Of a stretch of DNA of 37,708 nucleotides, positions 1 to 37,708 are shown one piece after another (position 1 is the first letter of the stretch; every line of letters starts with the position of its first letter). The notes under the pieces are model-generated. The model was not told the DNA's origin. It ran no database searches and was given only the letters and a program-made list of their open reading frames with translations. Source of the DNA: a virus; IMG/VR virus record IMGVR_UViG_3300026255_000014, positions 1 through 37,708 of that record, one strand, 5' to 3'. The translations under genes were made by a program, and so were the position numbers.

Positions 1-312
1 CCGTTTTGTGGGAGGACACCGAATCCAGACTGGACTGATGAGAGCTACATAGAGTGTACAAATCGTAAATGTTCTCTTTATGGTTATGGAATGAGTACAG
101 GCGACTGGAACACCCGCCCAATTGAGGATGACCTTCGCAAGCGCATTGCCGAGTTGGAGGCGCTTGTTAATGTGTCGGAAGGTCTTTACGAGCGTATCTA
201 TGAGCAAGCAGCCCGCATTGCCGAGCTGGAGGCGGAGATTGTCCAACTTACCGCTCACGATGCTACAGAGCGGCAAGATGATAAGTGGATACCGGAGGTG
301 CAGGATGTGTAA
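1..312 (+). CDS. Lar-like zinc-ribbon protein, 5' truncated by window edge; duplicate copy of 37306..37638
   Basis: ORF track 91..312 translation is identical to the C-terminal part of 37306..37638; the frame is open back to position 1. Confidence 0.5.
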   Translation, partial: PFCGRTPNPDWTDESYIECTNRKCSLYGYGMSTGDWNTRPIEDDLRKRIAELEALVNVSEGLYERIYEQAARIAELEAEIVQLTAHDATERQDDKWIPEVQDV

Positions 313-382
313 CTTTTTCAGTTTTGTAACAGACCCAGTGAATCACCCAGCGGAGTATTACTACTTCGACTGGGAATATCGC
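1..382. repeat. Terminal redundancy, left copy; identical to 37327..37708
   Basis: Direct comparison of the first and last 382 nt of the window shows identity; implies a unit genome of about 37,326 bp. Confidence 0.9.
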
Positions 383-1069
383 AAGGCGCACCTAAACGAC
401 GATGGAGTGGACAGCCATTCGCATATCTGTGCATACTACCTCCTCAACGAGGATAGATGTAACAAATATGAGTTCAATCCGCTGACTGGAAGATTTGATA
501 TTGACCAAATCAACTCGGAGCGTGATGATTCAAATGCTGCAGAAAAGTGGGCGAAACGGCAGGACTTCAAAGAGATTGTCGAGACACTTATTATCAAGCC
601 GATTGTCAAACCGTTTGAGTTGCCAAAGGTAGAACAAGTGACAGATGAACAAATTGGCTGGCTGAAGGAGTGGGCTTCGGTCAGGGATTTGGTCGGGGCT
701 TCGGTCTGGGCTTTGGTCGGGGATTCGGTCAGGGATTCGGTCTGGGCTTTGGTCGGGGTTTCGGTCAGGGATTTGGTCTTGGATTCGGTCAGGGATTTGG
801 TCGGGGCTTCGGTCTGGGCTTCGGTCAGGGCTTCGGTCAGGGATTTGGTCGGGGCTTCGGTCTGGGCTTCGGTCAGGGATTCGGTCTGGGCTTCGGTCTG
901 GGCATATATCAGCAGTTTTTTCGCCATCAACTACAAATACAACTTTTCGTCTGTAGCAAATCTTTGGAACGCAGGGCTTGTACCCTCATTTGACGGTGAG
1001 ACATGGCGGTTGCATAGCAGCGAGAATGCGGATGTGGTTTACGAGTGGACGCCGGAGGTGCAGGAATGA
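305..1069 (+). CDS. Hypothetical protein with internal tetrapeptide tandem-repeat array and C-terminal WTPEVQE tail
   Basis: Same frame as ORF 122..1069; likely start ATG 305 sits 5 nt after GGAGGTG and overlaps the upstream stop. Ends in the conserved junction CCGGAGGTGCAGGAATGA. Frame assignment through the repeat is ambiguous. Confidence 0.5.
   Translation: MCNFFSFVTDPVNHPAEYYYFDWEYRKAHLNDDGVDSHSHICAYYLLNEDRCNKYEFNPLTGRFDIDQINSERDDSNAAEKWAKRQDFKEIVETLIIKPIVKPFELPKVEQVTDEQIGWLKEWASVRDLVGASVWALVGDSVRDSVWALVGVSVRDLVLDSVRDLVGASVWASVRASVRDLVGASVWASVRDSVWASVWAYISSFFAINYKYNFSSVANLWNAGLVPSFDGETWRLHSSENADVVYEWTPEVQE
672..899. repeat. 19 tandem copies of a 12-bp unit GGGNTTYGGTCN
   Basis: Read directly from sequence. 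No stop codons in any forward frame, which is why ORFs 122..1069, 670..993 and antisense 436..930 all cross it. Confidence 0.9.
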
Positions 1070-4236: not shown

Positions 4237-4584
4237 ATGGCTTATGCGCCAGCAAGACAATGTGTTGTGCCAGGATGTCCGAATCTTGTGACAGAGCCTG
4301 GTGTTAGCCGTTGTCCAGAACATCAAAAACAATACAAAAAAGAGTTGACAAGACCGCGTGATGTCAAATACACGAGTCAACGATGGCGCAAGACCTCGAA
4401 GGTGTTTTTGAGTCGCAATCCAATTTGTGAACGTTGTGGTGAGCCGAGTGAGATCGCACACCACATTATTCGTAAGCGTGATGACGGGGCAGACGACTTC
4501 GACAATCTGGAAGCACTTTGCCGAAAGTGTCATGAAGCCGAACATCATGCAAGCGGTGAAAGGTGGGGTAGGCGTGCGAGGTAG
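4237..4584 (+). CDS. HNH homing-type endonuclease
   Basis: CxxC...CxxC plus HH..RKRDDG...N...LC..CH arrangement typical of the HNH fold; canonical position just upstream of the terminase small subunit. Confidence 0.8.
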   Translation: MAYAPARQCVVPGCPNLVTEPGVSRCPEHQKQYKKELTRPRDVKYTSQRWRKTSKVFLSRNPICERCGEPSEIAHHIIRKRDDGADDFDNLEALCRKCHEAEHHASGERWGRRAR

Positions 4585-5071
4585 AACGCCATTGCCAGAT
4601 GCTTTGAAAGAAGCACAGGGAACGCTGAAGAAGAGCCGAGTAAATGACTCTCAGGCTCGTTTTGACGTACCTAAAGACTCACCGAAACCGCCGACAACGC
4701 TCAATCTCTATGGCAAGCGGTTGTGGAAAGAAATGCTGCCAAAGTTGGTTGAAACAGGTCTTTATACCGAAGGTGATCACCAGGCGTTTGAATTGCTTTG
4801 CATGGCTTATGGTGATCTGATTCAGGCACGCAAAGACCTTAAAGAGTCGGGTACGATTGTTATCACAGACAAGGGCACGGTTTATCAGCACCCTAACGTT
4901 GGGATCGCAAACCAGGCTTGGAATCGGGTGAAACTGATGTTGGGGCAGTTTGGGCTGACACCAGCAGAGCGGACACGAGTAAAAGCACGCTCACCCGAAG
5001 AGAAAAGGGGCAGTTTGGCAGAATCGTTGTTTGCTGCTGCACGTGAAAAGGTTGAGGGTGAGACTGAGTGA
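4574..5071 (+). CDS. terS: Terminase small subunit (P27-family-like)
   Basis: Motif GQFGLTPAERTRVKA and N-terminal RGRTPLP resemble P27-family TerS. Start uncertain: GTG 4574 follows an AGGTGGGG SD; ATG 4547 and 4532 are in-frame alternatives. Confidence 0.7.
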   Translation: MRGRTPLPDALKEAQGTLKKSRVNDSQARFDVPKDSPKPPTTLNLYGKRLWKEMLPKLVETGLYTEGDHQAFELLCMAYGDLIQARKDLKESGTIVITDKGTVYQHPNVGIANQAWNRVKLMLGQFGLTPAERTRVKARSPEEKRGSLAESLFAAAREKVEGETE

Positions 5072-6375
5072 GTGCAAATCTGTATTTAGGTGACTGTCTG
5101 GAAGTCTTATCAACGCTTGAAGCGGATAGCATTGACACCTGCATCACTGACCCGCCTTACGAGTTAGGTTTCATGGGTAAGAAGTGGGATTCAAGCGGCA
5201 TTGCGTTCCAGCCTGAAACTTGGCAAGCCGTATTCAGGGTGCTGAAACCAGGTGCAATTCTGCTTGCCTTCGGCGGCACTCGCACCTATCACCGCATTGC
5301 TTGCGCTATTGAGGACGCTGGCTTTGAAATCCGTGACACTATCGCTTGGGTATACGGGAGCGGATTCCCTAAAAGTTACGACATAAGTAAGGGAATTGAC
5401 AAACAAGCTGGAGCTGAAAGGGAAATAGTAGGCTACAAGGAAACATCAACTTATCCAGATAGCGATGGTGTTGCTCATTACAAAAACAGGCAACAAAGCA
5501 ATGGTTCTCAAGTCAATACAGGAGGTATGCCAGAAATCACCGCGCCCTCCACCCCCGAAGCGCAACTCTGGGATGGCTGGGGCACGGCGTTGAAGCCTGC
5601 CTTTGAGCCGATAGTTGTTGCGATGAAGCCGATTGACGGCACGTTTGTCAACAACGCGCTCACTTGGGGCGTGGCTGGCTTGTGGATTGACGGGGGTAGG
5701 GTGGGGACGTCAAAAAACGTTCCTGCATCACCAAGCGATAAAGGCACTCTGCAATGTAAAGGTTTGGGCGGTGGATGGGATAGAAGCGGAATGAATCCGA
5801 ACATTGGTCGCTTCCCTGCCAACTTGATTCACGACGGCTCGGATGAGGTGGTGAGTGGGTTTCCGAATACTACGAGCGGCAAGGTTGCGGCTGGAACTAT
5901 GCGAGGCTTGAAAAGCAATCACAATGTGGCATACGCAGACATCGCCGCCGGAACTGAATTGACTGGCTACGGCGACTCTGGCTCAGCCGCGCGCTTTTTC
6001 TACTGTGCGAAAGCCAGCCGAAGCGAGCGCAACGCTGGGCTGGAGGGGATGGAAGAAAAGGTCGGCGGTGGAATGAAGGGCACGGAAGACCAAACGCTTT
6101 TGACTGGCTCTGGAAACATCCGCAACAATAAAATGCAAAACCACCATCCCACCGTCAAGCCAATCGAACTGATGCGCTACCTTGTTCGGCTTACCAAAAC
6201 GCCAACAGGCGGGGTGGTACTTGACCCGTTCATGGGGTCTGGCACGACTGGCATTGCTTGCGTGTTGGAAGGACGCGAGTTTATCGGAATTGAGCGGGAA
6301 GCGGAGTATGTCGAGATTGCAGAAAAGCGGATTGCGCATTACAGGTTGCCGATATTGGAAGAAGTGATCGAGTGA
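5068..6375 (+). CDS. DNA methyltransferase (N6-adenine/N4-cytosine, beta-class order)
   Basis: N-terminal DPPY (ITDPPYELGF) and C-terminal AdoMet motif LDPFMGSGTTGIA. Confidence 0.85.
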   Translation: MSANLYLGDCLEVLSTLEADSIDTCITDPPYELGFMGKKWDSSGIAFQPETWQAVFRVLKPGAILLAFGGTRTYHRIACAIEDAGFEIRDTIAWVYGSGFPKSYDISKGIDKQAGAEREIVGYKETSTYPDSDGVAHYKNRQQSNGSQVNTGGMPEITAPSTPEAQLWDGWGTALKPAFEPIVVAMKPIDGTFVNNALTWGVAGLWIDGGRVGTSKNVPASPSDKGTLQCKGLGGGWDRSGMNPNIGRFPANLIHDGSDEVVSGFPNTTSGKVAAGTMRGLKSNHNVAYADIAAGTELTGYGDSGSAARFFYCAKASRSERNAGLEGMEEKVGGGMKGTEDQTLLTGSGNIRNNKMQNHHPTVKPIELMRYLVRLTKTPTGGVVLDPFMGSGTTGIACVLEGREFIGIEREAEYVEIAEKRIAHYRLPILEEVIE

Positions 6376-8966
6376 AAAAGTACGATCCCTGGAATTGCGA
6401 CCTTGATAAGTACGAATTTGACCCTGTGGCTGGGCAGGTTGCAGTCGACTTTATTGAAAATTATATTACCCATGTCAAAGGGGAGTTAGGCGGCAAGCCT
6501 TTTTTGCTTTTGGAGTGGGAAAAGGATTTTGTAAGAAACCTTTTCGGTTGGAAAGAAAAGGAAACAGGTTATCGGCGTTACCGTGAGGCGTTTGTATTTG
6601 TGGCACGGAAAAATGGCAAAGCATTAGAAGTCAATACTCCGATTCTGACTACTACAGGTTGGAAGAAACACGGCGATTTAGTCCCTGGAGACTTTGTTTT
6701 TTCTCCTGATGGCGTACCCGCAAAGGTTATCTATTCTACTCCTCATTATGAGGGGAATTGTTATTTTGTGGATTTCTCAGGCGATGAAGCAATTATCGCT
6801 CACGAAAATCACGAATGGAAAACTAACCGCACCTGGTATACAGGAAAGCCCAAATGGATAGAAGGTGAAAAGCCTTTGGTTACCACTAAGCGGATTGCGG
6901 AAACTCTACGATGTGGGAAACGCCAAGACCTTGTGCATTCTGTGGATGTTGCGAAACCGATACAGTTTGAGCCAAAAGAATACACAATACCCCCGTATGT
7001 TTTAGGCGTTTGGCTTGGCGATGGCGACTCTGACAGTTGCAGGATCACGATTGCAGAACCTGAAATTGTCCAGAAGCTATCTGATTATGGTTATCCAGCC
7101 GAATATAGATCAAGATACCGACACCTTGTTGGACGGGGGAAGTTTCAAAAGCAACTGCGTGAAAAGGGCTTACTGGGCAATAAGCATATACCACAAGAAT
7201 ACTTGCTTGGTTCAGTTGAGCAAAGGATCGACCTCTTGCGCGGATTGATGGACACAGACGGTTATGTGTCTTCGGCTGGACAATGCGGAATTGCATTAAC
7301 CGACGGTAATTTGTTTCGCCAAGTTGTCGAATTAATTACAGGCTTGGGATTAAAGCCTCGCGTAATGATTGATCGTGCTCAGTTAAATGGGGTTGACTGC
7401 GGAGTTAGATATAGAGTCCACTTCTATGCCTATCAAGACACGCCAATAGCATATATTGAGCGAAAAGCCAAACGGCAAAAAGAAACTCCAAAAACAAGGC
7501 GGCGCAGCCAGACTCGGATGATTTCAAATGTTACGCCCGCAGGTAAGCAAACAGTCAACTGCATCACAGTCGAAGGCGGGATGTATCTCGCAGGAAAGCA
7601 ACTTATCCCAACTCACAACTCACCTCTTGGGGCTGCCATCGCGCTTTATCTGTTGATTGTAGACAATGAGCCTGGTGCAGAGTTGATCTCTGTAGCAGCA
7701 GACCGAGACCAGGCACGGGCGATTTTTGACACGGCTCGTTTTATGGTAAAGCAAAACGCCGCCCTGGACGAATTGGTTAGTGCATATCGAAATGCGATTG
7801 TCGCTAAGCAAGGGGCTTCAGTTTACAAAGTTGTTTCATCGGATGCTGGCACTAAGCATGGTGGAAACTTACATGCTGCGCTTTTTGACGAGTTGCACGC
7901 TCAGAAGAACCGAGACCTTTACGATGTTGTGCAAACCAGTTTTGGCGCGCGCCGTCAACCACTGCTGATTTCTTTTAGTACGGCAGGGTTTGATCGTGAG
8001 TCGATCTGCTATGAAGTTTACTCAATGGCAAAGCAGATTTCTGAGGGCATAATCCAGCGAGATTGGTTTTACCCCGTAATATACGAGGCATCGCCAGAAG
8101 ACGATTGGACAAGCGAAGATACGTGGAAGAAAGCCAATCCGAGTTTGGGACACTCGATCAAGATTGATTACCTGCAGAAGAATTATGAAAAGGCTCTATC
8201 AAGCCCGCAGTTCCAAAACACTTTCAAGCGTTTGTATCTCAATATGTGGACATCGGCAGAAACACGCTGGCTTGATATGCAAAACTGGGACAAATGCGGT
8301 GAGCAACCGATTGACATGGGACTGCTTGAAGGGGCTGAATGTTACGGCGGTCTTGACCTTGCGACAGTTTCTGACATTGCTGCTTTTGTACTGGATTTCC
8401 CGAATGAAAGCGGTGAAGAGGAATTGCACACCTGGCTTCCGACCTTGTTCTGTCCAGAGTCAAAGTTGACCGACCCAGGTTTCATTGACCGCGACATTTA
8501 CAGGGCTTGGGCTGACCAGGGCTATTTGATTGCAACGCCTGGAAACGTGATTGACTACGAGTACATCATTGCTGAAATTGAGCGATTAGGTGAACTTTAC
8601 AACATTAAAGAGATCGCATTTGACCGTTGGGGTGCTGCACAGATTTCACAAACGCTTACCAATATGGGCTTTACTTTGGTTGGTTTTGGTCAAGGGTACG
8701 TGAGCATGTCACCACCCACAAAAGAAGTTGAGCGGTTGATATTACAAGGCAGGGTGAGACATGGAAACCACCCTGTAATGCGTTGGATGGCGGATAACGT
8801 TATGGTTACGACTGACCCTGCAGGGAATATCAAGCCAGACAAGAAGAAAAGCAGGCAGAAGATTGACGGCGTGGTTGCGGCAATCATGGCAACCGATAGG
8901 GCAATTAGAAATTCTGTAGGTCGCAAGGACTCTGTTTACGAAAAAAGAGGGTTGGTTGTTCTATGA
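6372..8966 (+). CDS. terL: Terminase large subunit, interrupted by an in-frame intein
   Basis: 864 aa; removing residues 84..416 yields the P-loop ARKNGKS and a Walker B-like LLIVDNE with a C-terminal nuclease-like domain. GTG start overlaps the upstream stop. Confidence 0.9.
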   Translation: MKKYDPWNCDLDKYEFDPVAGQVAVDFIENYITHVKGELGGKPFLLLEWEKDFVRNLFGWKEKETGYRRYREAFVFVARKNGKALEVNTPILTTTGWKKHGDLVPGDFVFSPDGVPAKVIYSTPHYEGNCYFVDFSGDEAIIAHENHEWKTNRTWYTGKPKWIEGEKPLVTTKRIAETLRCGKRQDLVHSVDVAKPIQFEPKEYTIPPYVLGVWLGDGDSDSCRITIAEPEIVQKLSDYGYPAEYRSRYRHLVGRGKFQKQLREKGLLGNKHIPQEYLLGSVEQRIDLLRGLMDTDGYVSSAGQCGIALTDGNLFRQVVELITGLGLKPRVMIDRAQLNGVDCGVRYRVHFYAYQDTPIAYIERKAKRQKETPKTRRRSQTRMISNVTPAGKQTVNCITVEGGMYLAGKQLIPTHNSPLGAAIALYLLIVDNEPGAELISVAADRDQARAIFDTARFMVKQNAALDELVSAYRNAIVAKQGASVYKVVSSDAGTKHGGNLHAALFDELHAQKNRDLYDVVQTSFGARRQPLLISFSTAGFDRESICYEVYSMAKQISEGIIQRDWFYPVIYEASPEDDWTSEDTWKKANPSLGHSIKIDYLQKNYEKALSSPQFQNTFKRLYLNMWTSAETRWLDMQNWDKCGEQPIDMGLLEGAECYGGLDLATVSDIAAFVLDFPNESGEEELHTWLPTLFCPESKLTDPGFIDRDIYRAWADQGYLIATPGNVIDYEYIIAEIERLGELYNIKEIAFDRWGAAQISQTLTNMGFTLVGFGQGYVSMSPPTKEVERLILQGRVRHGNHPVMRWMADNVMVTTDPAGNIKPDKKKSRQKIDGVVAAIMATDRAIRNSVGRKDSVYEKRGLVVL
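6621..7619 (+). mobile_element. Intein (333 aa) with LAGLIDADG homing endonuclease domain inside the TerL Walker A motif
   Basis: Begins ALEVNTPILT, contains LGVWLGDGDS and LLRGLMDTDGYV, ends ...LIPTHN followed by Ser; splicing restores ARKNGK|SPLG. Confidence 0.8.
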
Positions 8967-31494: not shown

Positions 31495-31713
31495 ATGCCC
31501 GTCTACGTTTACCATTGTGACAATTGCCTGAAGCAGACCGAGATATTTCAACACTTCACCGATGACCCGATAACCGTGTGCCCTGAGTGTAAACAGCCGA
31601 CTTTGCAGAAAGTGTATCAGGTTGCGAACGTGCATTACAAGGGCAATGGCTTCTATGTCACGGATAAACGAGGGGCTGAACAAGTGTCGGGGGAGTCTTC
31701 GGACAACTCATAA
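31495..31713 (+). CDS. FmdB-family-like zinc-ribbon protein
   Basis: MPVYVYHCDNC...CPEC...GNGFYVTD matches the FmdB-type zinc ribbon pattern. Confidence 0.65.
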   Translation: MPVYVYHCDNCLKQTEIFQHFTDDPITVCPECKQPTLQKVYQVANVHYKGNGFYVTDKRGAEQVSGESSDNS

Positions 31714-31742
31714 CGCGGGGGCAGTACCCGCCAGCTCCACTA

Positions 31743-31780
31743 AAAGAGCACCAGCTAAATTGTAGGTGCTCTTTCGTTTT
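31743..31780 (+). terminator. Rho-independent terminator closing the late operon
   Basis: AAAGAGCACC-loop-GGTGCTCTTT followed by CGTTTT. Confidence 0.7.
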
Positions 31781-31781
31781 A

Positions 31782-31855
31782 AGTATTGTATTCGAGTATT
31801 GTAATTAAGTATTGTAAGACGCATCCCATTTTAAGTATTGATTTCAGGTATTGTA
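31782..31855. repeat. Five direct copies of RGTATTGW (AGTATTGTA core), iteron-like
   Basis: Copies at about 31782, 31795, 31808, 31834, 31847. Confidence 0.7.
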
Positions 31856-32029
31856 ACGCCTTCTTCTGCCATTGCCTTATCAAGCAGGTTGCGTAGAGTA
31901 CGGCTGATCCCCTGTGGCTGTGACGTAAAAAAAGGGGGTAAAAACAGGGGTTATTATAATATCGCATAATTACACCTTATTATAATACAACGCTTATTTT
32001 AGGGGTATTTTATCGCTTGCAATGGCCAC

Positions 32030-32101
32030 GGGTTCAGGGTTCAGGGTTCAGGGGTTCACGATCTCAGGGTTCAGGGTTCAGCGTCCAGGGGTAGGGGGGG
32101 G
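32030..32101. repeat. Tandem GGGTTCA heptamer array ending in a G8 run
   Basis: GGGTTCA x3, GGGGTTC, gap, GGGTTCA x2, degenerate copies, then GGGGTAGGGGGGGG. Confidence 0.85.
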
Positions 32102-32214
32102 CGAAATCTCTACCGCGCAAGCCCCCCGAGCGCGCGCGTAATCTTAGGCACGCGAGGGCAAATATCCGACAGGGGGTTAATCTTACCAATTATTCAAGAA
32201 ATCCCGAAAAACAC

Positions 32215-32242
32215 TTGACTTTTGCTTTAATTTGTGTATAAT
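32215..32242 (+). promoter_or_regulatory. Sigma-70-type promoter, near consensus (probable early promoter)
   Basis: TTGACT (32215..32220), 16-nt spacer, TATAAT (32237..32242); RBS TAAGGAGC and ATG at 32284 downstream. Confidence 0.65.
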
Positions 32243-34980: not shown

Positions 34981-35456
34981 CAGAACAGGAAAAGAAAGAA
35001 TACTTCAAGTTCGAAAAGGATTCTCAACTAATCATCGACCAATATTACGTGCTGAGAGGACACACCGTAGACAGATCAACCTCGTGCATTTCTTACGACT
35101 GCATATTAGATGGCAAGGATAAAATCGAAGAGAAAATTCGACAAATAGAGCGATCCGATATTCTTGTTGAATTTATCCAAGACGCTGTAAGTTACGCTCC
35201 TGGTTGGTTTTACGAAACAAGATGTGATTATTTACACTACATCTTCATGGACAAAGCTGGAGGATTTATCAGTAGATTTGTCAGGTTGAGTTGGAATAAA
35301 TTCAAGAGTTGGTGCTTGACTGATTATCTTACGAAGAATAAGCACCCATACAGTGTGATTAGCGACAAAGGGTGGGGGCTTACGATTAACTTCTCAATTC
35401 CGATAGATGCTATACCAAAATCCATAGCTACTTATGACAGCAAGACAGGAGGTTGA
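34977..35456 (+). CDS. Hypothetical protein
   Basis: ORF track. Confidence 0.5.
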   Translation: MTEQEKKEYFKFEKDSQLIIDQYYVLRGHTVDRSTSCISYDCILDGKDKIEEKIRQIERSDILVEFIQDAVSYAPGWFYETRCDYLHYIFMDKAGGFISRFVRLSWNKFKSWCLTDYLTKNKHPYSVISDKGWGLTINFSIPIDAIPKSIATYDSKTGG

Positions 35457-35458
35457 AA

Positions 35459-36211
35459 ATGGCTTGGACCCGGATTGACGACAACTTCAAGAATAATATA
35501 AAAGTCCGCAAGGCTGGTGGTGATGGAGTCTTACTCTATCTTTACGGATTGATTCATTGCAATACTAACCTGACAGACGGTTATATTGACGAAGTTTATT
35601 TACCGCAACTGTTTGCAGACGCATTTTGTAAAAGGCCAAAAACTACAGTTGAAAAATTGCTTGAGGTCGGTCTTTGGATCAAAGTTGATGGTGGTTACCA
35701 GGTGAATGACTTTTTAGAATATAACCTGACAAAAGCAGAAATTGAAAAACGTAGGCAAGCAAAAGTAAAAGCAGGACGCAAGGGCGGACTAATCTCAAGT
35801 GAAAGCAAACAGAAAACAGAGAGCATACCAGATGCTCAAGCAAGTGCTCAAGCAGATGCTCAAGCAAAATTCAACCCCATAACCCATAACCCATTCCCAT
35901 TACCAGATAACCCTAAAGATACTACTACCGGTACTTCTTTTTCAGACGTTGCAAAAGCCTATGAAGATGTTTGTGGAGTTCTAAATTCAGTTACCGCTGA
36001 CAAGCTGAAACTGGCTTACAGCGAATATGAGCCTTCCTGGATTATGGATGCTTTGAAAGAGACGGCCGTGCAGAATAAGCGTTCTTGGGCTTATACGGAG
36101 GCAATCCTGAAACGCTGGCAAAAAGAAGGGCGCAATAACGGCAAGCGCGCGGTCAAGCCGGAGCGGTCAGCTGACACGTTCAGGCAGTACCGGAAGGCGG
36201 TGGGGGCGTGA
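35459..36211 (+). CDS. Replisome organizer / DnaD-like replication initiation protein
   Basis: N-terminus WTRIDDNF resembles phage replisome organizer N-terminal domains; C-terminal SWAYTEAILKRWQKEG resembles the DnaD-domain signature. AGGAGG 6 nt upstream of ATG 35459. Confidence 0.55.
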   Translation: MAWTRIDDNFKNNIKVRKAGGDGVLLYLYGLIHCNTNLTDGYIDEVYLPQLFADAFCKRPKTTVEKLLEVGLWIKVDGGYQVNDFLEYNLTKAEIEKRRQAKVKAGRKGGLISSESKQKTESIPDAQASAQADAQAKFNPITHNPFPLPDNPKDTTTGTSFSDVAKAYEDVCGVLNSVTADKLKLAYSEYEPSWIMDALKETAVQNKRSWAYTEAILKRWQKEGRNNGKRAVKPERSADTFRQYRKAVGA

Positions 36212-37124: not shown

Positions 37125-37309
37125 GCGACATTAAAGAGTATCAGTCAGATTCAATAGTTTGCGATTTGTGTAATGGAAAAGGAAATATATTGATGACCTT
37201 CCATGATTGGATTTTAGATGAAACGCGCACGGAAGTGAGTACCTGTATCCGTTGTAAAGGCAAGGGCTTCTTGCATGATGGCAAACAGCCGCCGGAGGTG
37301 CAGGAATGA
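37121..37309 (+). CDS. Small zinc-ribbon protein
   Basis: CDLCNGKG...CIRCKGKG; ends in the PEVQE junction. Confidence 0.55.
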   Translation: MSDIKEYQSDSIVCDLCNGKGNILMTFHDWILDETRTEVSTCIRCKGKGFLHDGKQPPEVQE

Positions 37310-37638
37310 ACACGCTTAAACCCTGTCCGTTTTGTGGGAGGACACCGAATCCAGACTGGACTGATGAGAGCTACATAGAGTGTACAAATCGTAAATGTTC
37401 TCTTTATGGTTATGGAATGAGTACAGGCGACTGGAACACCCGCCCAATTGAGGATGACCTTCGCAAGCGCATTGCCGAGTTGGAGGCGCTTGTTAATGTG
37501 TCGGAAGGTCTTTACGAGCGTATCTATGAGCAAGCAGCCCGCATTGCCGAGCTGGAGGCGGAGATTGTCCAACTTACCGCTCACGATGCTACAGAGCGGC
37601 AAGATGATAAGTGGATACCGGAGGTGCAGGATGTGTAA
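37306..37638 (+). CDS. Lar-family-like zinc-ribbon protein (putative restriction alleviation), paralog A
   Basis: Same N-terminal zinc ribbon and coiled coil as 1066..1395; complete copy of the gene truncated at 1..312. Confidence 0.6.
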   Translation: MNTLKPCPFCGRTPNPDWTDESYIECTNRKCSLYGYGMSTGDWNTRPIEDDLRKRIAELEALVNVSEGLYERIYEQAARIAELEAEIVQLTAHDATERQDDKWIPEVQDV

Positions 37639-37708
37639 CTTTTTCAGTTTTGTAACAGACCCAGTGAATCACCCAGCGGAGTATTACTACTTCGACTGGG
37701 AATATCGC
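37327..37708. repeat. Terminal redundancy, right copy; identical to 1..382
   Basis: Direct sequence identity. Confidence 0.9.
37631..37708 (+). CDS. 5' end of the tandem-repeat protein gene (duplicate of 305..382), truncated by window end
   Basis: Identical to 305..382. Confidence 0.45.
   Translation, partial: MCNFFSFVTDPVNHPAEYYYFDWEYR

What the first reader, a model, noticed from the sequence alone, without database searches (positions are those of the whole stretch)
32030..32101. GGGTTCA heptamer tandem array with G-quadruplex potential next to the early promoter
GGGTTCAGGGTTCAGGGTTCAGGGG gives four G-tracts separated by 4-nt loops, the canonical G3+N4 quadruplex pattern on the + strand, then a second set of heptamers and a G8 run that can pair with GCCCCCC at 32119..32125. 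It lies in the only sizeable non-coding region, between the late terminator and the early promoter, where packaging sites, origins or regulatory switches are expected.
Basis: seen in the sequence. Interest (0 to 1): 0.7.

Follow-up and report, generated by a model that had tools for sequence, protein, structure and literature searches.

The report
Heptamer repeats flanking phage cos site
The GGGTTCA repeats are real, and the G-run just after them matches the conserved core of the DNA-packaging (cos) site of HK97-type phages, so the finding most likely marks the physical ends of this phage genome, with the repeats as an unusual local add-on.

Summary
There are six exact GGGTTCA units plus variants at 32030-32087, found nowhere else in the genome. 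They are followed by GGGGTA, G8 and CG-AAATCTCT.

The decisive result came from the G8 side. The pattern G8-NN-AAATCTCT recurs in 35 unrelated viral contigs, mostly between an HNH endonuclease gene and a Terminase_4 small-terminase gene. In phage HK97 the same motif sits 31 nt from the mapped right cohesive end. Two metagenomic contigs end 21-22 nt after it.

The window encodes HNH, Terminase_4 TerS and an HK97-like TerL, and carries this motif only once. I therefore read 32086-32165 as an HK97-type cos site. The heptamers look like a tandem amplification of the TCAGGG element that normally precedes the G-run.

Five related lineages keep the array, with 3 to 8 units. Ten assemblies of this strain are identical across the region.

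The proposed G8:C6 hairpin is not supported. G-quadruplex potential is real in sequence but untested, and HK97 itself lacks it.

The site is unusually placed: 9.5 kb from HNH/terS, between the late terminator and the early promoter. The termini have not been mapped. What the heptamers do is inferred, not shown.

The parts
32030..32087 (+). Tandem heptamer array: GGGTTCA x3, GGGGTTCA, CGATCTCA, GGGTTCA x2, GCGTCCA (8 units)
   Evidence: The same unit, in 3-8 copies, is found in L156, L105, L203 and L258, always directly upstream of the G-run.
32086..32111 (+). Conserved core motif CAGGGGTA-G8-CG-AAATCTCT, in the cosQ position upstream of the predicted cut
   Evidence: Matches HK97 (TCAGGGCA-G9-ATC-AAATCTTC, 31 nt from the mapped right end). 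Matches SfV and 35 distinct IMG/VR sites lying between HNH and Terminase_4 genes. It is the only such motif in the window.
32112..32128 (+). Variable spacer (ACCGCGCAAGCCCCCCG), which contains the C6 run
   Evidence: Variable among the five lineages (A3) and among other phages. The C-run is neither conserved nor enriched.
32129..32144 (+). Invariant AGCGCGCGCGTAATCT; predicted cleavage region (cosN), with cuts inferred near 32132/32133 and 32142/32143
   Evidence: Invariant in all lineages. Its position, +18 to +33 after AAATCTCT, corresponds to the HK97 end at +31 and to contig ends at +21/+22 in L213 and L222. The cut positions themselves are inferred from spacing only.
32145..32175 (+). Left-end proximal segment with the A/T tract AAATAT (32160-32165) and G5; candidate small-terminase binding site
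   Evidence: A/T tracts are enriched +44 to +66 after the motif in homologous sites (18/33). HK97 TerS binds +15 to +29 from the cut, a site that includes an A-tract (PMC11331095).
31922..32029 (+). A-tract pair (GTAAAAAAAGGGG x2, 31925-31950) plus an AT-rich segment upstream of the array
   Evidence: Conserved in L156 and L105, partly in L258, absent in L203, so it is separable from the cos core. HK97 also has an AT-rich stretch upstream of its G-run.
32215..32242 (+). Early promoter TTGACT-16-TATAAT
   Evidence: Homologous promoters occur in L184 and L203.
4237..8966 (+). Packaging enzymes expected to act on the site: HNH endonuclease (4237-4584), Terminase_4 TerS (about 4547-5071), DNA methylase (5068-6375, not part of the packaging machinery), and TerL with an intein (6372-8966)
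   Evidence: Pfam. HNH abuts TerS with no intergenic cos, both here and in 16 relatives.

Best explanation
The 3' part of the finding (CAGGGGTA-G8-CG-AAATCTCT, 32086-32111), together with about 60 nt to its right, is the cohesive-end (cos) packaging site of this phage, of the HK97 type. By analogy with HK97, TerL with the HNH endonuclease would cut about 21-31 nt downstream of AAATCTCT, within the invariant AGCGCGCGCGTAATCT, leaving a 3' overhang. TerS would bind the A/T-tract region just beyond the cut. Packaging would proceed rightward into the early genes.

The GGGTTCA array then lies on the last-packaged (right-end) side. It is a lineage-specific tandem amplification of the '(T)TCAGGG' element that precedes the G-run in ordinary HK97-type cos sites.

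I think it most likely acts in cis in duplex DNA as reiterated copies of the upstream, cosQ-like recognition element, helping the translocating terminase recognise or stop at cos. It could equally be a tolerated slippage product of that element.

What is shown: motif identity, context, conservation, and a matching enzyme set. What is inferred: the cut positions, the direction of packaging, and any role for the heptamers.
For: (1) G8-NN-AAATCTCT retrieves 35 distinct IMG/VR sites. They share one architecture: (T)CAGGGG(G)TA, G8-9, NN, AAATCTCT, about 21 nt variable, RGACC, and an A/T tract.
(2) The upstream ORF ends in an HNH motif in most of these sites. The downstream ORF starts like a P27-type TerS. 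Pfam confirms HNH and Terminase_4 in 4 of 4 pairs tested.
(3) HK97 was not retrieved by the pattern, so it is an independent comparison. It has TCAGGGCA-G9-ATC-AAATCTTC 31 nt from its right end, with the HNH gene upstream and terS downstream. Its cos gives 10-nt 3' overhangs, and TerS binds +15 to +29 (PMC11331095; PMC9410871).
(4) The SfV record ends 14 nt after GGGGAGGGGCGGG-TC-AAATCTCT. Actinophage right ends carry G-block variants.
(5) Contigs L213 and L222 end 21-22 nt after the motif.
(6) The window encodes HNH, Terminase_4 TerS and an HK97-like TerL. It has exactly one copy of the motif.
(7) HNH abuts terS with no room for a cos, and there is no G/C run within 1.5 kb, in the window and in 16 relatives.
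(8) In five lineages the array always abuts the G-run. The unit TTCAGGG matches the conserved proximal element (HK97 aTCAGGG; L221 tTCAGGGGG; L227 aTCAGGGGG).
(9) The predicted cut region is invariant while the spacer varies.
Against: The termini were not mapped, and ten assemblies read straight through the site. The site is 9.5 kb from HNH/terS, whereas the family norm is between those two genes. The predicted cut region reads GAGCG/CGCGCG rather than the common RGACC. The A/T tract is only 6 nt, against 9 in HK97. Close relatives with related early genes lack the block at this junction (L107/L108, L184, L204), and their cos is unlocated. Reiterated units upstream of the G-run are rare in other phages; only L242 shows something similar. 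A role for them in packaging is therefore not supported by comparison. The retrieval pattern came from the window, so identity over those 16 specified bases is circular. Only the flanks, the gene context and HK97 are independent evidence.
Confidence: 0.72

Rival explanations
1. The G-run region is the cos site, but the heptamer array is a neutral microsatellite. On this reading it arose by replication slippage on the TTCAGGG/TCCAGGGG seed next to the G-run and is tolerated because it lies outside the essential cos core.
For: Unit number differs among lineages: 3, 5, 6, 7 and 8. Variant units (CGATCTCA) are duplicated in L156. Such arrays are absent from HK97 and nearly all other sites of this class. 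L203 has only three units.
Against: The unit sequence is kept in five lineages whose neighbouring non-coding DNA is only 74-80% identical or unrelated. There is no length polymorphism in ten independent assemblies. The array is never lost completely.
Confidence: 0.3
2. The array is an iteron set of a replication origin, bound by the phage DnaD-like/RepA-like initiator, with the adjacent A-tract/AT-rich segment as the unwinding element.
For: A-tracts plus about 70 nt of AT-rich DNA lie next to the direct repeats. A second heptamer array sits in the linker of the initiator gene. Read on the - strand it is (GGGTTAT)n GGGGTTGA, the same form as (GGGTTCA)3 GGGGTTCA. It is conserved at DNA level in homologues that are only 50-67% identical as proteins.
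Against: L203 has the intergenic array, but its initiator gene carries 12-mers and no heptamers. L184 has the heptamer-type initiator but no intergenic array in the 780 nt upstream of its early operon. The AT-rich part is absent in L203. The core bases differ (ATGGG against CAGGG). The cos homology explains the G-run without any need for an origin.
Confidence: 0.07
3. The array is an operator made of heptads for a transcriptional regulator of the early promoter, like the 7-bp heptads bound by the ribbon-helix-helix repressor omega of pSM19035.
For: The array lies upstream of the early promoter in every lineage. It occupies the slot held by a cI-like repressor gene in L184. L203 has a small RHH-like gene as the first early gene.
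Against: The window encodes no RHH, repressor or other candidate partner nearby. The distance to the promoter varies: the block ends about 22 nt before the -35 hexamer in the window, about 45 nt in L203 and about 225 nt in L105. RHH-bearing relatives L107 and L179 lack the array.
Confidence: 0.06
4. A G-quadruplex, or the G8:C6 hairpin, formed by the + strand acts as a structural switch for transcription or replication, independently of packaging.
For: A canonical G-quadruplex motif is present, and G-rich sequence is retained in all five lineages.
Against: The hairpin is neither conserved nor favoured thermodynamically. No promoter is placed to transcribe the array in L203, where it directly follows a terminator. 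There is no Rfam match. HK97's homologous site lacks a four-tract motif.
Confidence: 0.05

Closest known systems
HK97 cos site (Escherichia phage HK97, NC_002167; 10-nt 3' overhang; cleavage by TerL gp2 stimulated by HNH gp74; TerS gp1 binds +15 to +29)
   Same: G-block, A, G8-9 run, 2-3 nt, then AAATCT(C/T)(T/C), at a fixed short distance upstream of the end. AT-rich DNA lies upstream and an A/T tract downstream. The enzyme set is the same: HNH, small terminase and an HK97-like TerL (PMC11331095, PMC9410871).
   Different: In HK97 the site lies between the HNH and terS genes; here it is 9.5 kb from them. HK97 has a single TCAGGG element and no tandem array. The predicted cut-region sequence differs. 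The termini here are unmapped.
Lambda cosQ (packaging-termination element upstream of cosN)
   Same: A short cis element on the last-packaged side of the nick site. The G-run/AAATCTCT motif and the heptamers occupy that side. This rests on my own knowledge of lambda; the paper (Cue and Feiss 1998) is listed in the references of PMC11331095.
   Different: There is no sequence similarity. Lambda makes 5' overhangs and has no HNH partner. A termination role for the motif studied here is inferred, not shown.
Herpesvirus pac1 packaging signal
   Same: An A/T-rich element flanked by G-rich tracts, cleavage at a fixed distance, and G-quadruplex-capable sequence (review PMC13595911). Herpesvirus terminases and capsids belong to the HK97 lineage (my own knowledge).
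   Different: This is an analogy of layout only. Homology was not tested. pac1 lies in terminal repeats of eukaryotic viruses.
Heptad iteron arrays bound by ribbon-helix-helix proteins (omega of pSM19035) and iterons inside initiator genes (lambda O, SPP1 G38P)
   Same: Tandem 7-bp direct repeats in non-coding DNA near a promoter. This genome also has a second heptamer array inside its initiator gene. The comparison with these systems is from my own knowledge.
   Different: No cognate RHH protein is encoded in the window. There is no co-variation with the initiator type.

Membership tests
HK97-type cos site (HNH-assisted, 3'-overhang) | G-block-(T)A-G8-9 run followed after 2-3 nt by AAATCT(C/T)(T/C) | tested here: met
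   The window has CAGGGGTA-G8-CG-AAATCTCT at 32086-32111. HK97, SfV and 35 IMG/VR sites share it. It is the only copy in the window.
HK97-type cos site (HNH-assisted, 3'-overhang) | Physical genome end at a fixed short distance (about 14-31 nt) downstream of the motif | not testable with these tools
   No reads or virion DNA were available. Comparators: HK97 at +31, SfV at +14, and contig ends at +21/+22. Assemblies of this phage read through the site.
HK97-type cos site (HNH-assisted, 3'-overhang) | Conserved cut-site segment about 20 nt after the motif (commonly RGACC|G) | tested here: inconclusive
   The window lineages have an invariant (G/T)AGCG|CGCGCGTAATCT at the same distance, but not RGACC. 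Only 17 of 36 other sites match RNACC at +20 to +23.
HK97-type cos site (HNH-assisted, 3'-overhang) | A/T tract downstream of the cut (small-terminase site; HK97 +15 to +29) | tested here: met
   AAATAT at 32160-32165 lies +49 to +54 after the motif. That falls inside the +44 to +66 interval where 18 of 33 sites have an A/T run of 6 or more. The tract is shorter than HK97's 9 bp.
HK97-type cos site (HNH-assisted, 3'-overhang) | Genome encodes an HNH endonuclease, a small terminase and an HK97-like TerL | tested here: met
   PF01844 at 4237-4584; PF05119 in 4427-5071; PF03354 and PF20441 in 6372-8966.
HK97-type cos site (HNH-assisted, 3'-overhang) | Site located between the HNH and terS genes | tested here: not met
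   HNH and terS abut or overlap, and the motif is 9.5 kb upstream on the circular map. The same gene abutment holds in 16 relatives. This is a typical arrangement rather than a mechanistic requirement.
Canonical G-quadruplex motif | Four G3+ tracts with 1-7 nt loops; a folded G4 in vitro | tested here: inconclusive
   The sequence criterion is met at 32030-32054. Folding is not testable here. HK97's homologous site has only three tracts.
Iteron-type replication origin | Repeats that co-vary with the cognate initiator, next to an AT-rich unwinding element | tested here: not met
   L203 keeps the array but has a different iteron type in its initiator gene and no AT-rich segment. L184 shows the converse.
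RHH heptad operator (omega-like) | Cognate ribbon-helix-helix regulator encoded with the array | tested here: not met
   No RHH or repressor was found among the window ORFs scanned with Pfam and PHROGs. The only RHH gene trace is a truncated remnant at 31779-31922.

The most novel reading that the evidence does not exclude
The amplified TTCAGGG units give this cos site a true four-tract G-quadruplex motif on the strand that runs 5'->3' towards the predicted 3'-overhang end. That is a telomere-like layout, and it parallels the G4-capable pac1 signals of herpesviruses. In this reading, G4 or other non-B structure at the last-packaged, first-injected end contributes to terminase pausing or cos recognition, or protects that end from host exonucleases, in the way a cluster of Chi-like sites would. 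That end carries anti-defence cargo in relatives.
Probability: 0.12. Interest if true: 0.7.

Novelty: new variant of a known kind. Interest (0 to 1): 0.42.

Why it matters
It gives a testable prediction of the physical ends of an uncultivated digester phage: cuts near 32132-32143. That sets the true gene order in the virion. The early genes would sit at the left end. The exonuclease, the tRNA-like RNA and, in relatives, an anti-CRISPR locus would sit at the last-packaged end.

It also shows that a compact motif (G-block-A-G8-NN-AAATCTCT) marks cos sites across many unrelated HNH/Terminase_4 phages, which could be used to orient metagenomic phage genomes. I found no description of this motif in the HK97 packaging papers I read, but I cannot exclude that it is described elsewhere.

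The variant here has a tandemly amplified upstream element and a cos site uncoupled from terS/HNH. It offers a natural series of 3-8 units for asking what the upstream part of an HK97-type cos does.

Tried and rejected
- BLAST of the region and of 21 kb of the genome against INPHARED phages found nothing. PLSDB plasmids also gave no match.
- An exact 21-mer of the array in IMG/VR gave 62 hits. None showed similarity to the window beyond the heptamer array itself, so I treated them as unrelated.
- The 16-mer AGCGCGCGCGTAATCT in IMG/VR gave only the window's own sequence plus chance hits in unrelated sequence that looks coding.
- Rfam on the region gave only sub-threshold tmRNA hits, which belong to a different element at 31672-31740. 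No tRNA was found.
- GC skew is uniformly positive and uninformative.
- The ssDNA fold shows no excess structure.
- Coding potential: the ORF across the array is not conserved, and its frame shifts with unit number.
- Co-variation of the intergenic array with the heptamers inside the initiator gene was not supported.
- I compared the AT-rich block by eye with the E. coli dif sequence as I recall it: 7 of 11 bases match in each arm, and the segment is not conserved in L105. No tool was run on this.
- Sigma-70 promoters inside the block: none found.
- Literature search by sequence returned only rat qPCR primers and plant telomere variants.
- Contig ends of this phage's own assemblies cluster at 33.3-34.5 kb, a strain-variable region, not at the block.

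Full report
**What the window is.** The window is a complete phage genome of about 37.3 kb with 382 identical bases at both ends of the record. All genes are on the + strand. It has an HK97-like morphogenesis module: HNH endonuclease at 4237-4584, Terminase_4 small terminase in 4427-5071, TerL with an intein at 6372-8966, then portal, protease and capsid. A replication module follows the region of interest: Erf, an MT-A70 methylase, a DnaD/RepA-like initiator at 35453-36211, and SSB. No integrase, repressor or RHH protein was found among the ORFs scanned, which cover the early, regulatory and packaging genes but not most structural genes. The phage has no match in INPHARED. It occurs in anaerobic digester and bioreactor metagenomes.

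**Observation.** The array is exactly as described. There are six exact GGGTTCA units, and none elsewhere on either strand. They are interleaved with GGGGTTCA, CGATCTCA and GCGTCCA, then followed by GGGGTA, G8 (32094-32101) and CG-AAATCTCT. It is the only canonical four-tract G-quadruplex motif on the + strand. A terminator (about 31745-31780) and a near-consensus promoter (32215-32242) bracket the non-coding region.

**First round of comparison.** Relatives were found through the upstream exonuclease gene. They show that the intergenic region is mosaic. A block from 31922 to about 32193 recurs in L156 (80% identity) and L105 (74%). The part from the heptamers rightwards recurs in L203 and L258. 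The five lineages have 8, 7, 6, 5 and 3 heptamer-like units. The array always ends ...CA-GGGG(G)(G)(T)A-G8.

Downstream there is a 13-nt variable stretch, then an invariant AGCGCGCGCGTAATCT. Ten independent assemblies of the window's own strain are identical over all 570 nt of the intergenic region. The array is therefore not hypervariable within the strain.

The C6 run said to pair with G8 is not conserved. The region folds no better than shuffled sequence. No ORF across the array is conserved, and there is no Rfam match.

**The decisive result.** I scanned IMG/VR with G8-NN-AAATCTCT, taken from the invariant part of the block. It returned 38 stretches, 35 of them distinct besides the window's own contig. 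They are otherwise unrelated in sequence but share one layout:
- (T)CAGGGG(G)TA, then G8-9, NN and AAATCTCT;
- about 21 variable nt, often followed by RGACC;
- an A/T tract, enriched +44 to +66 after the motif (18 of 33 sites).

The ORF just upstream ends with an HNH motif in most of them. The ORF just downstream begins like a P27-family small terminase. Pfam confirmed HNH and Terminase_4 in all four pairs tested. Contigs L213 and L222 stop 21 and 22 nt after the motif.

HK97 was not retrieved by the pattern, so it is an independent test. Its right end reads ...cgcatcaGGGCAGGGGGGGGGATCAAATCTTCaaaacctttgccccaaatgaccgccgccaaa|. The HNH gene gp74 lies upstream, and terS starts 50 nt into the left end. 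HK97's cos is experimentally defined, with 10-nt 3' overhangs. TerS binds +15 to +29, a site that includes an A-tract, and gp74 stimulates cleavage (PMC11331095; PMC9410871). The SfV record ends 14 nt after GGGGAGGGGCGGG-TC-AAATCTCT. Actinophage right ends show G-block variants.

**Interpretation.** The window has this motif once only and encodes the matching enzymes. In the window and in 16 relatives of its TerS, the HNH gene abuts terS. There is no intergenic space and no G/C run of 6 or more within 1.5 kb. The canonical position for cos is therefore empty in this clade.

I conclude that 32086 to about 32165 is the cos site, displaced to the junction between the late-operon terminator and the early promoter. 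By spacing, the cuts should fall near 32132/32133 and 32142/32143, inside the invariant segment. The A/T tract AAATAT (32160-32165) is where a TerS site is expected. These positions are inferred, not measured.

The heptamer unit TTCAGGG is the same as the element directly upstream of the G-run in ordinary sites (HK97 aTCAGGG, L221 tTCAGGGGG, L227 aTCAGGGGG). The array therefore looks like a tandem amplification of that submotif, on the last-packaged side where lambda has cosQ.

Whether the extra copies work in packaging or are tolerated slippage products cannot be decided here. In favour of function: the unit is kept in five lineages. In favour of a passenger: the number of units varies, and comparable arrays are nearly absent elsewhere (only L242 has TGAGGGnnnn x3).

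**Rivals.**
- An origin reading was attractive. A-tracts and AT-rich DNA adjoin the array. The genome's only other G-quadruplex motif is a second heptamer array in the linker of the initiator gene: CCCATAA x5 at 35876-35913, next to ATGCTCAAGCAA x3. It is conserved at DNA level in homologues only 50-67% identical as proteins. That intragenic array is a good candidate for the real origin. However, L203 has the intergenic array with a different intragenic iteron type, and L184 shows the converse.
- An operator reading lacks a cognate regulator, and the spacing to the promoter varies.
- A structural-switch reading lacks conservation of the hairpin. HK97 also shows that a four-tract G4 motif is not needed for this class of site.
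- A review notes that herpesvirus pac1 signals are T-rich elements flanked by G-rich tracts, direct cleavage at a fixed distance, and are G4-capable (PMC13595911). That keeps a structural contribution to packaging as a minority possibility.

**Context.** The stretch 31779-31922 is a deletion scar. Relatives L100-L104, L146, L156 and L163 carry about 3.1 kb there. In L156 it is a minus-strand operon that includes an AcrIC5 homologue (PF22147, E = 2e-16). The operon ends in a small protein that I judged RHH-like by eye, since no family matched it. GTATTGTA sites recur around this gene, and five of them survive in the window. Other relatives carry an abiF RNA motif in this region. The region next to the predicted right end therefore looks like an anti-defence island.

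**Verdict.** This is a new variant of a known kind of element: an HK97-type cos with an amplified upstream element and an atypical genomic position.

Noticed in passing
window 31672-31740 (+), overlapping the 3' end of ORF 31495-31713: A 69-nt tRNA/tmRNA-like element: GGGGCTG...GCGGGGGCAGTACCCGC-CAGCTCCAC. It has a 7-bp acceptor stem with an invariant G3-U70 pair, a T-arm, and an internal UUCG-capped hairpin. Homologues of 66-85 nt occur in many relatives. Eight of 13 predicted pairs show compensatory changes, including T-arm pairs that were not used to select the sequences. Rfam gives only sub-threshold tmRNA hits. ARAGORN finds no tRNA or tmRNA in the window and, of 13 relatives scanned, calls a tRNA only in L015, at the position of the element. 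It looks like a tmRNA tRNA-like domain without the mRNA part; its function is unknown.
   Followed up: partly
window 31779-31922; L156 723-4033: Deletion scar. Relatives carry about 3.1 kb here. In L156 a minus-strand operon includes an AcrIC5 anti-CRISPR homologue (L156 1605-1823, PF22147, E = 2e-16). The operon ends in a 69-aa protein that I judged RHH-like by eye, with no family match. There are also arrays of GTATTGTA x8 and AATACCTGGTAGCTTGC x9 between inverted duplicate promoter regions. The window keeps only the 3' end of that last gene (spurious ORF 31779-31967, minus strand) and five (A/G)GTATTG sites, four of them GTATTGTA (31781-31860).
   Followed up: partly
window 35832-35913 (inside initiator gene 35453-36211): ATGCTCAAGCAA x3 followed by CCCATAA x5. 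On the minus strand this reads (GGGTTAT)n GGGGTTGA and is the only other G4 motif in the genome. The repeats are conserved at DNA level in initiator homologues only 50-67% identical as proteins (L184, L186, L188), and replaced by other repeats where the N-terminal domain differs (L179, L203). This is a likely origin of replication inside the initiator gene.
   Followed up: partly
window 4237-5071; L264-L279: The HNH endonuclease gene abuts or overlaps the small terminase gene, with no intergenic cos and no G/C run within 1.5 kb, in the window and in 16 relatives of its TerS. The HNH-cos-terS order found for the cos motif in other phages is broken in this clade.
   Followed up: yes
window 6372-8966: The large terminase carries an intein-like insertion (Hom_end/LAGLIDADG hits at residues about 273-350) between the start of the protein and the ATPase domain.
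   Followed up: no
window 1-382 and 37327-37708; 1045-1395 vs 37306-37638: The record's first and last 382 nt are identical, which indicates circular assembly or a terminal repeat of the record. They lie inside a Lar-like restriction-alleviation gene that has a near-identical paralogue at 1045-1395. If the cos prediction is right, these are not the physical ends.
   Followed up: no
L184 933-996; L105 6363-6426: Type II hammerhead ribozymes (RF02276, 42-43 bits, above the gathering score) between early genes of relatives. None was detected in the window.
   Followed up: partly
L107 2567-2603; L015 8193-8229: abiF RNA motif (RF03085, above the gathering score) in the equivalent late/early intergenic region of relatives. 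Alongside the Acr locus, this suggests the junction is an anti-defence hotspot.
   Followed up: no
L105 5783-5800: In L105 the variable spacer between AAATCTCT and the predicted cut reads GCCATCCTGGTGGTGGTAG. It contains CTGGTGG, a 7-of-8 match to E. coli Chi (GCTGGTGG, from my own knowledge), in the orientation active for an enzyme entering at the predicted right end. This may be chance.
   Followed up: no
window 671-902: A 24-nt (also 36- and 48-nt) tandem repeat, about 9.7 copies, within the listed ORF 122-1069, where it reads as a VRDSVWASV-like repetitive stretch.
   Followed up: no
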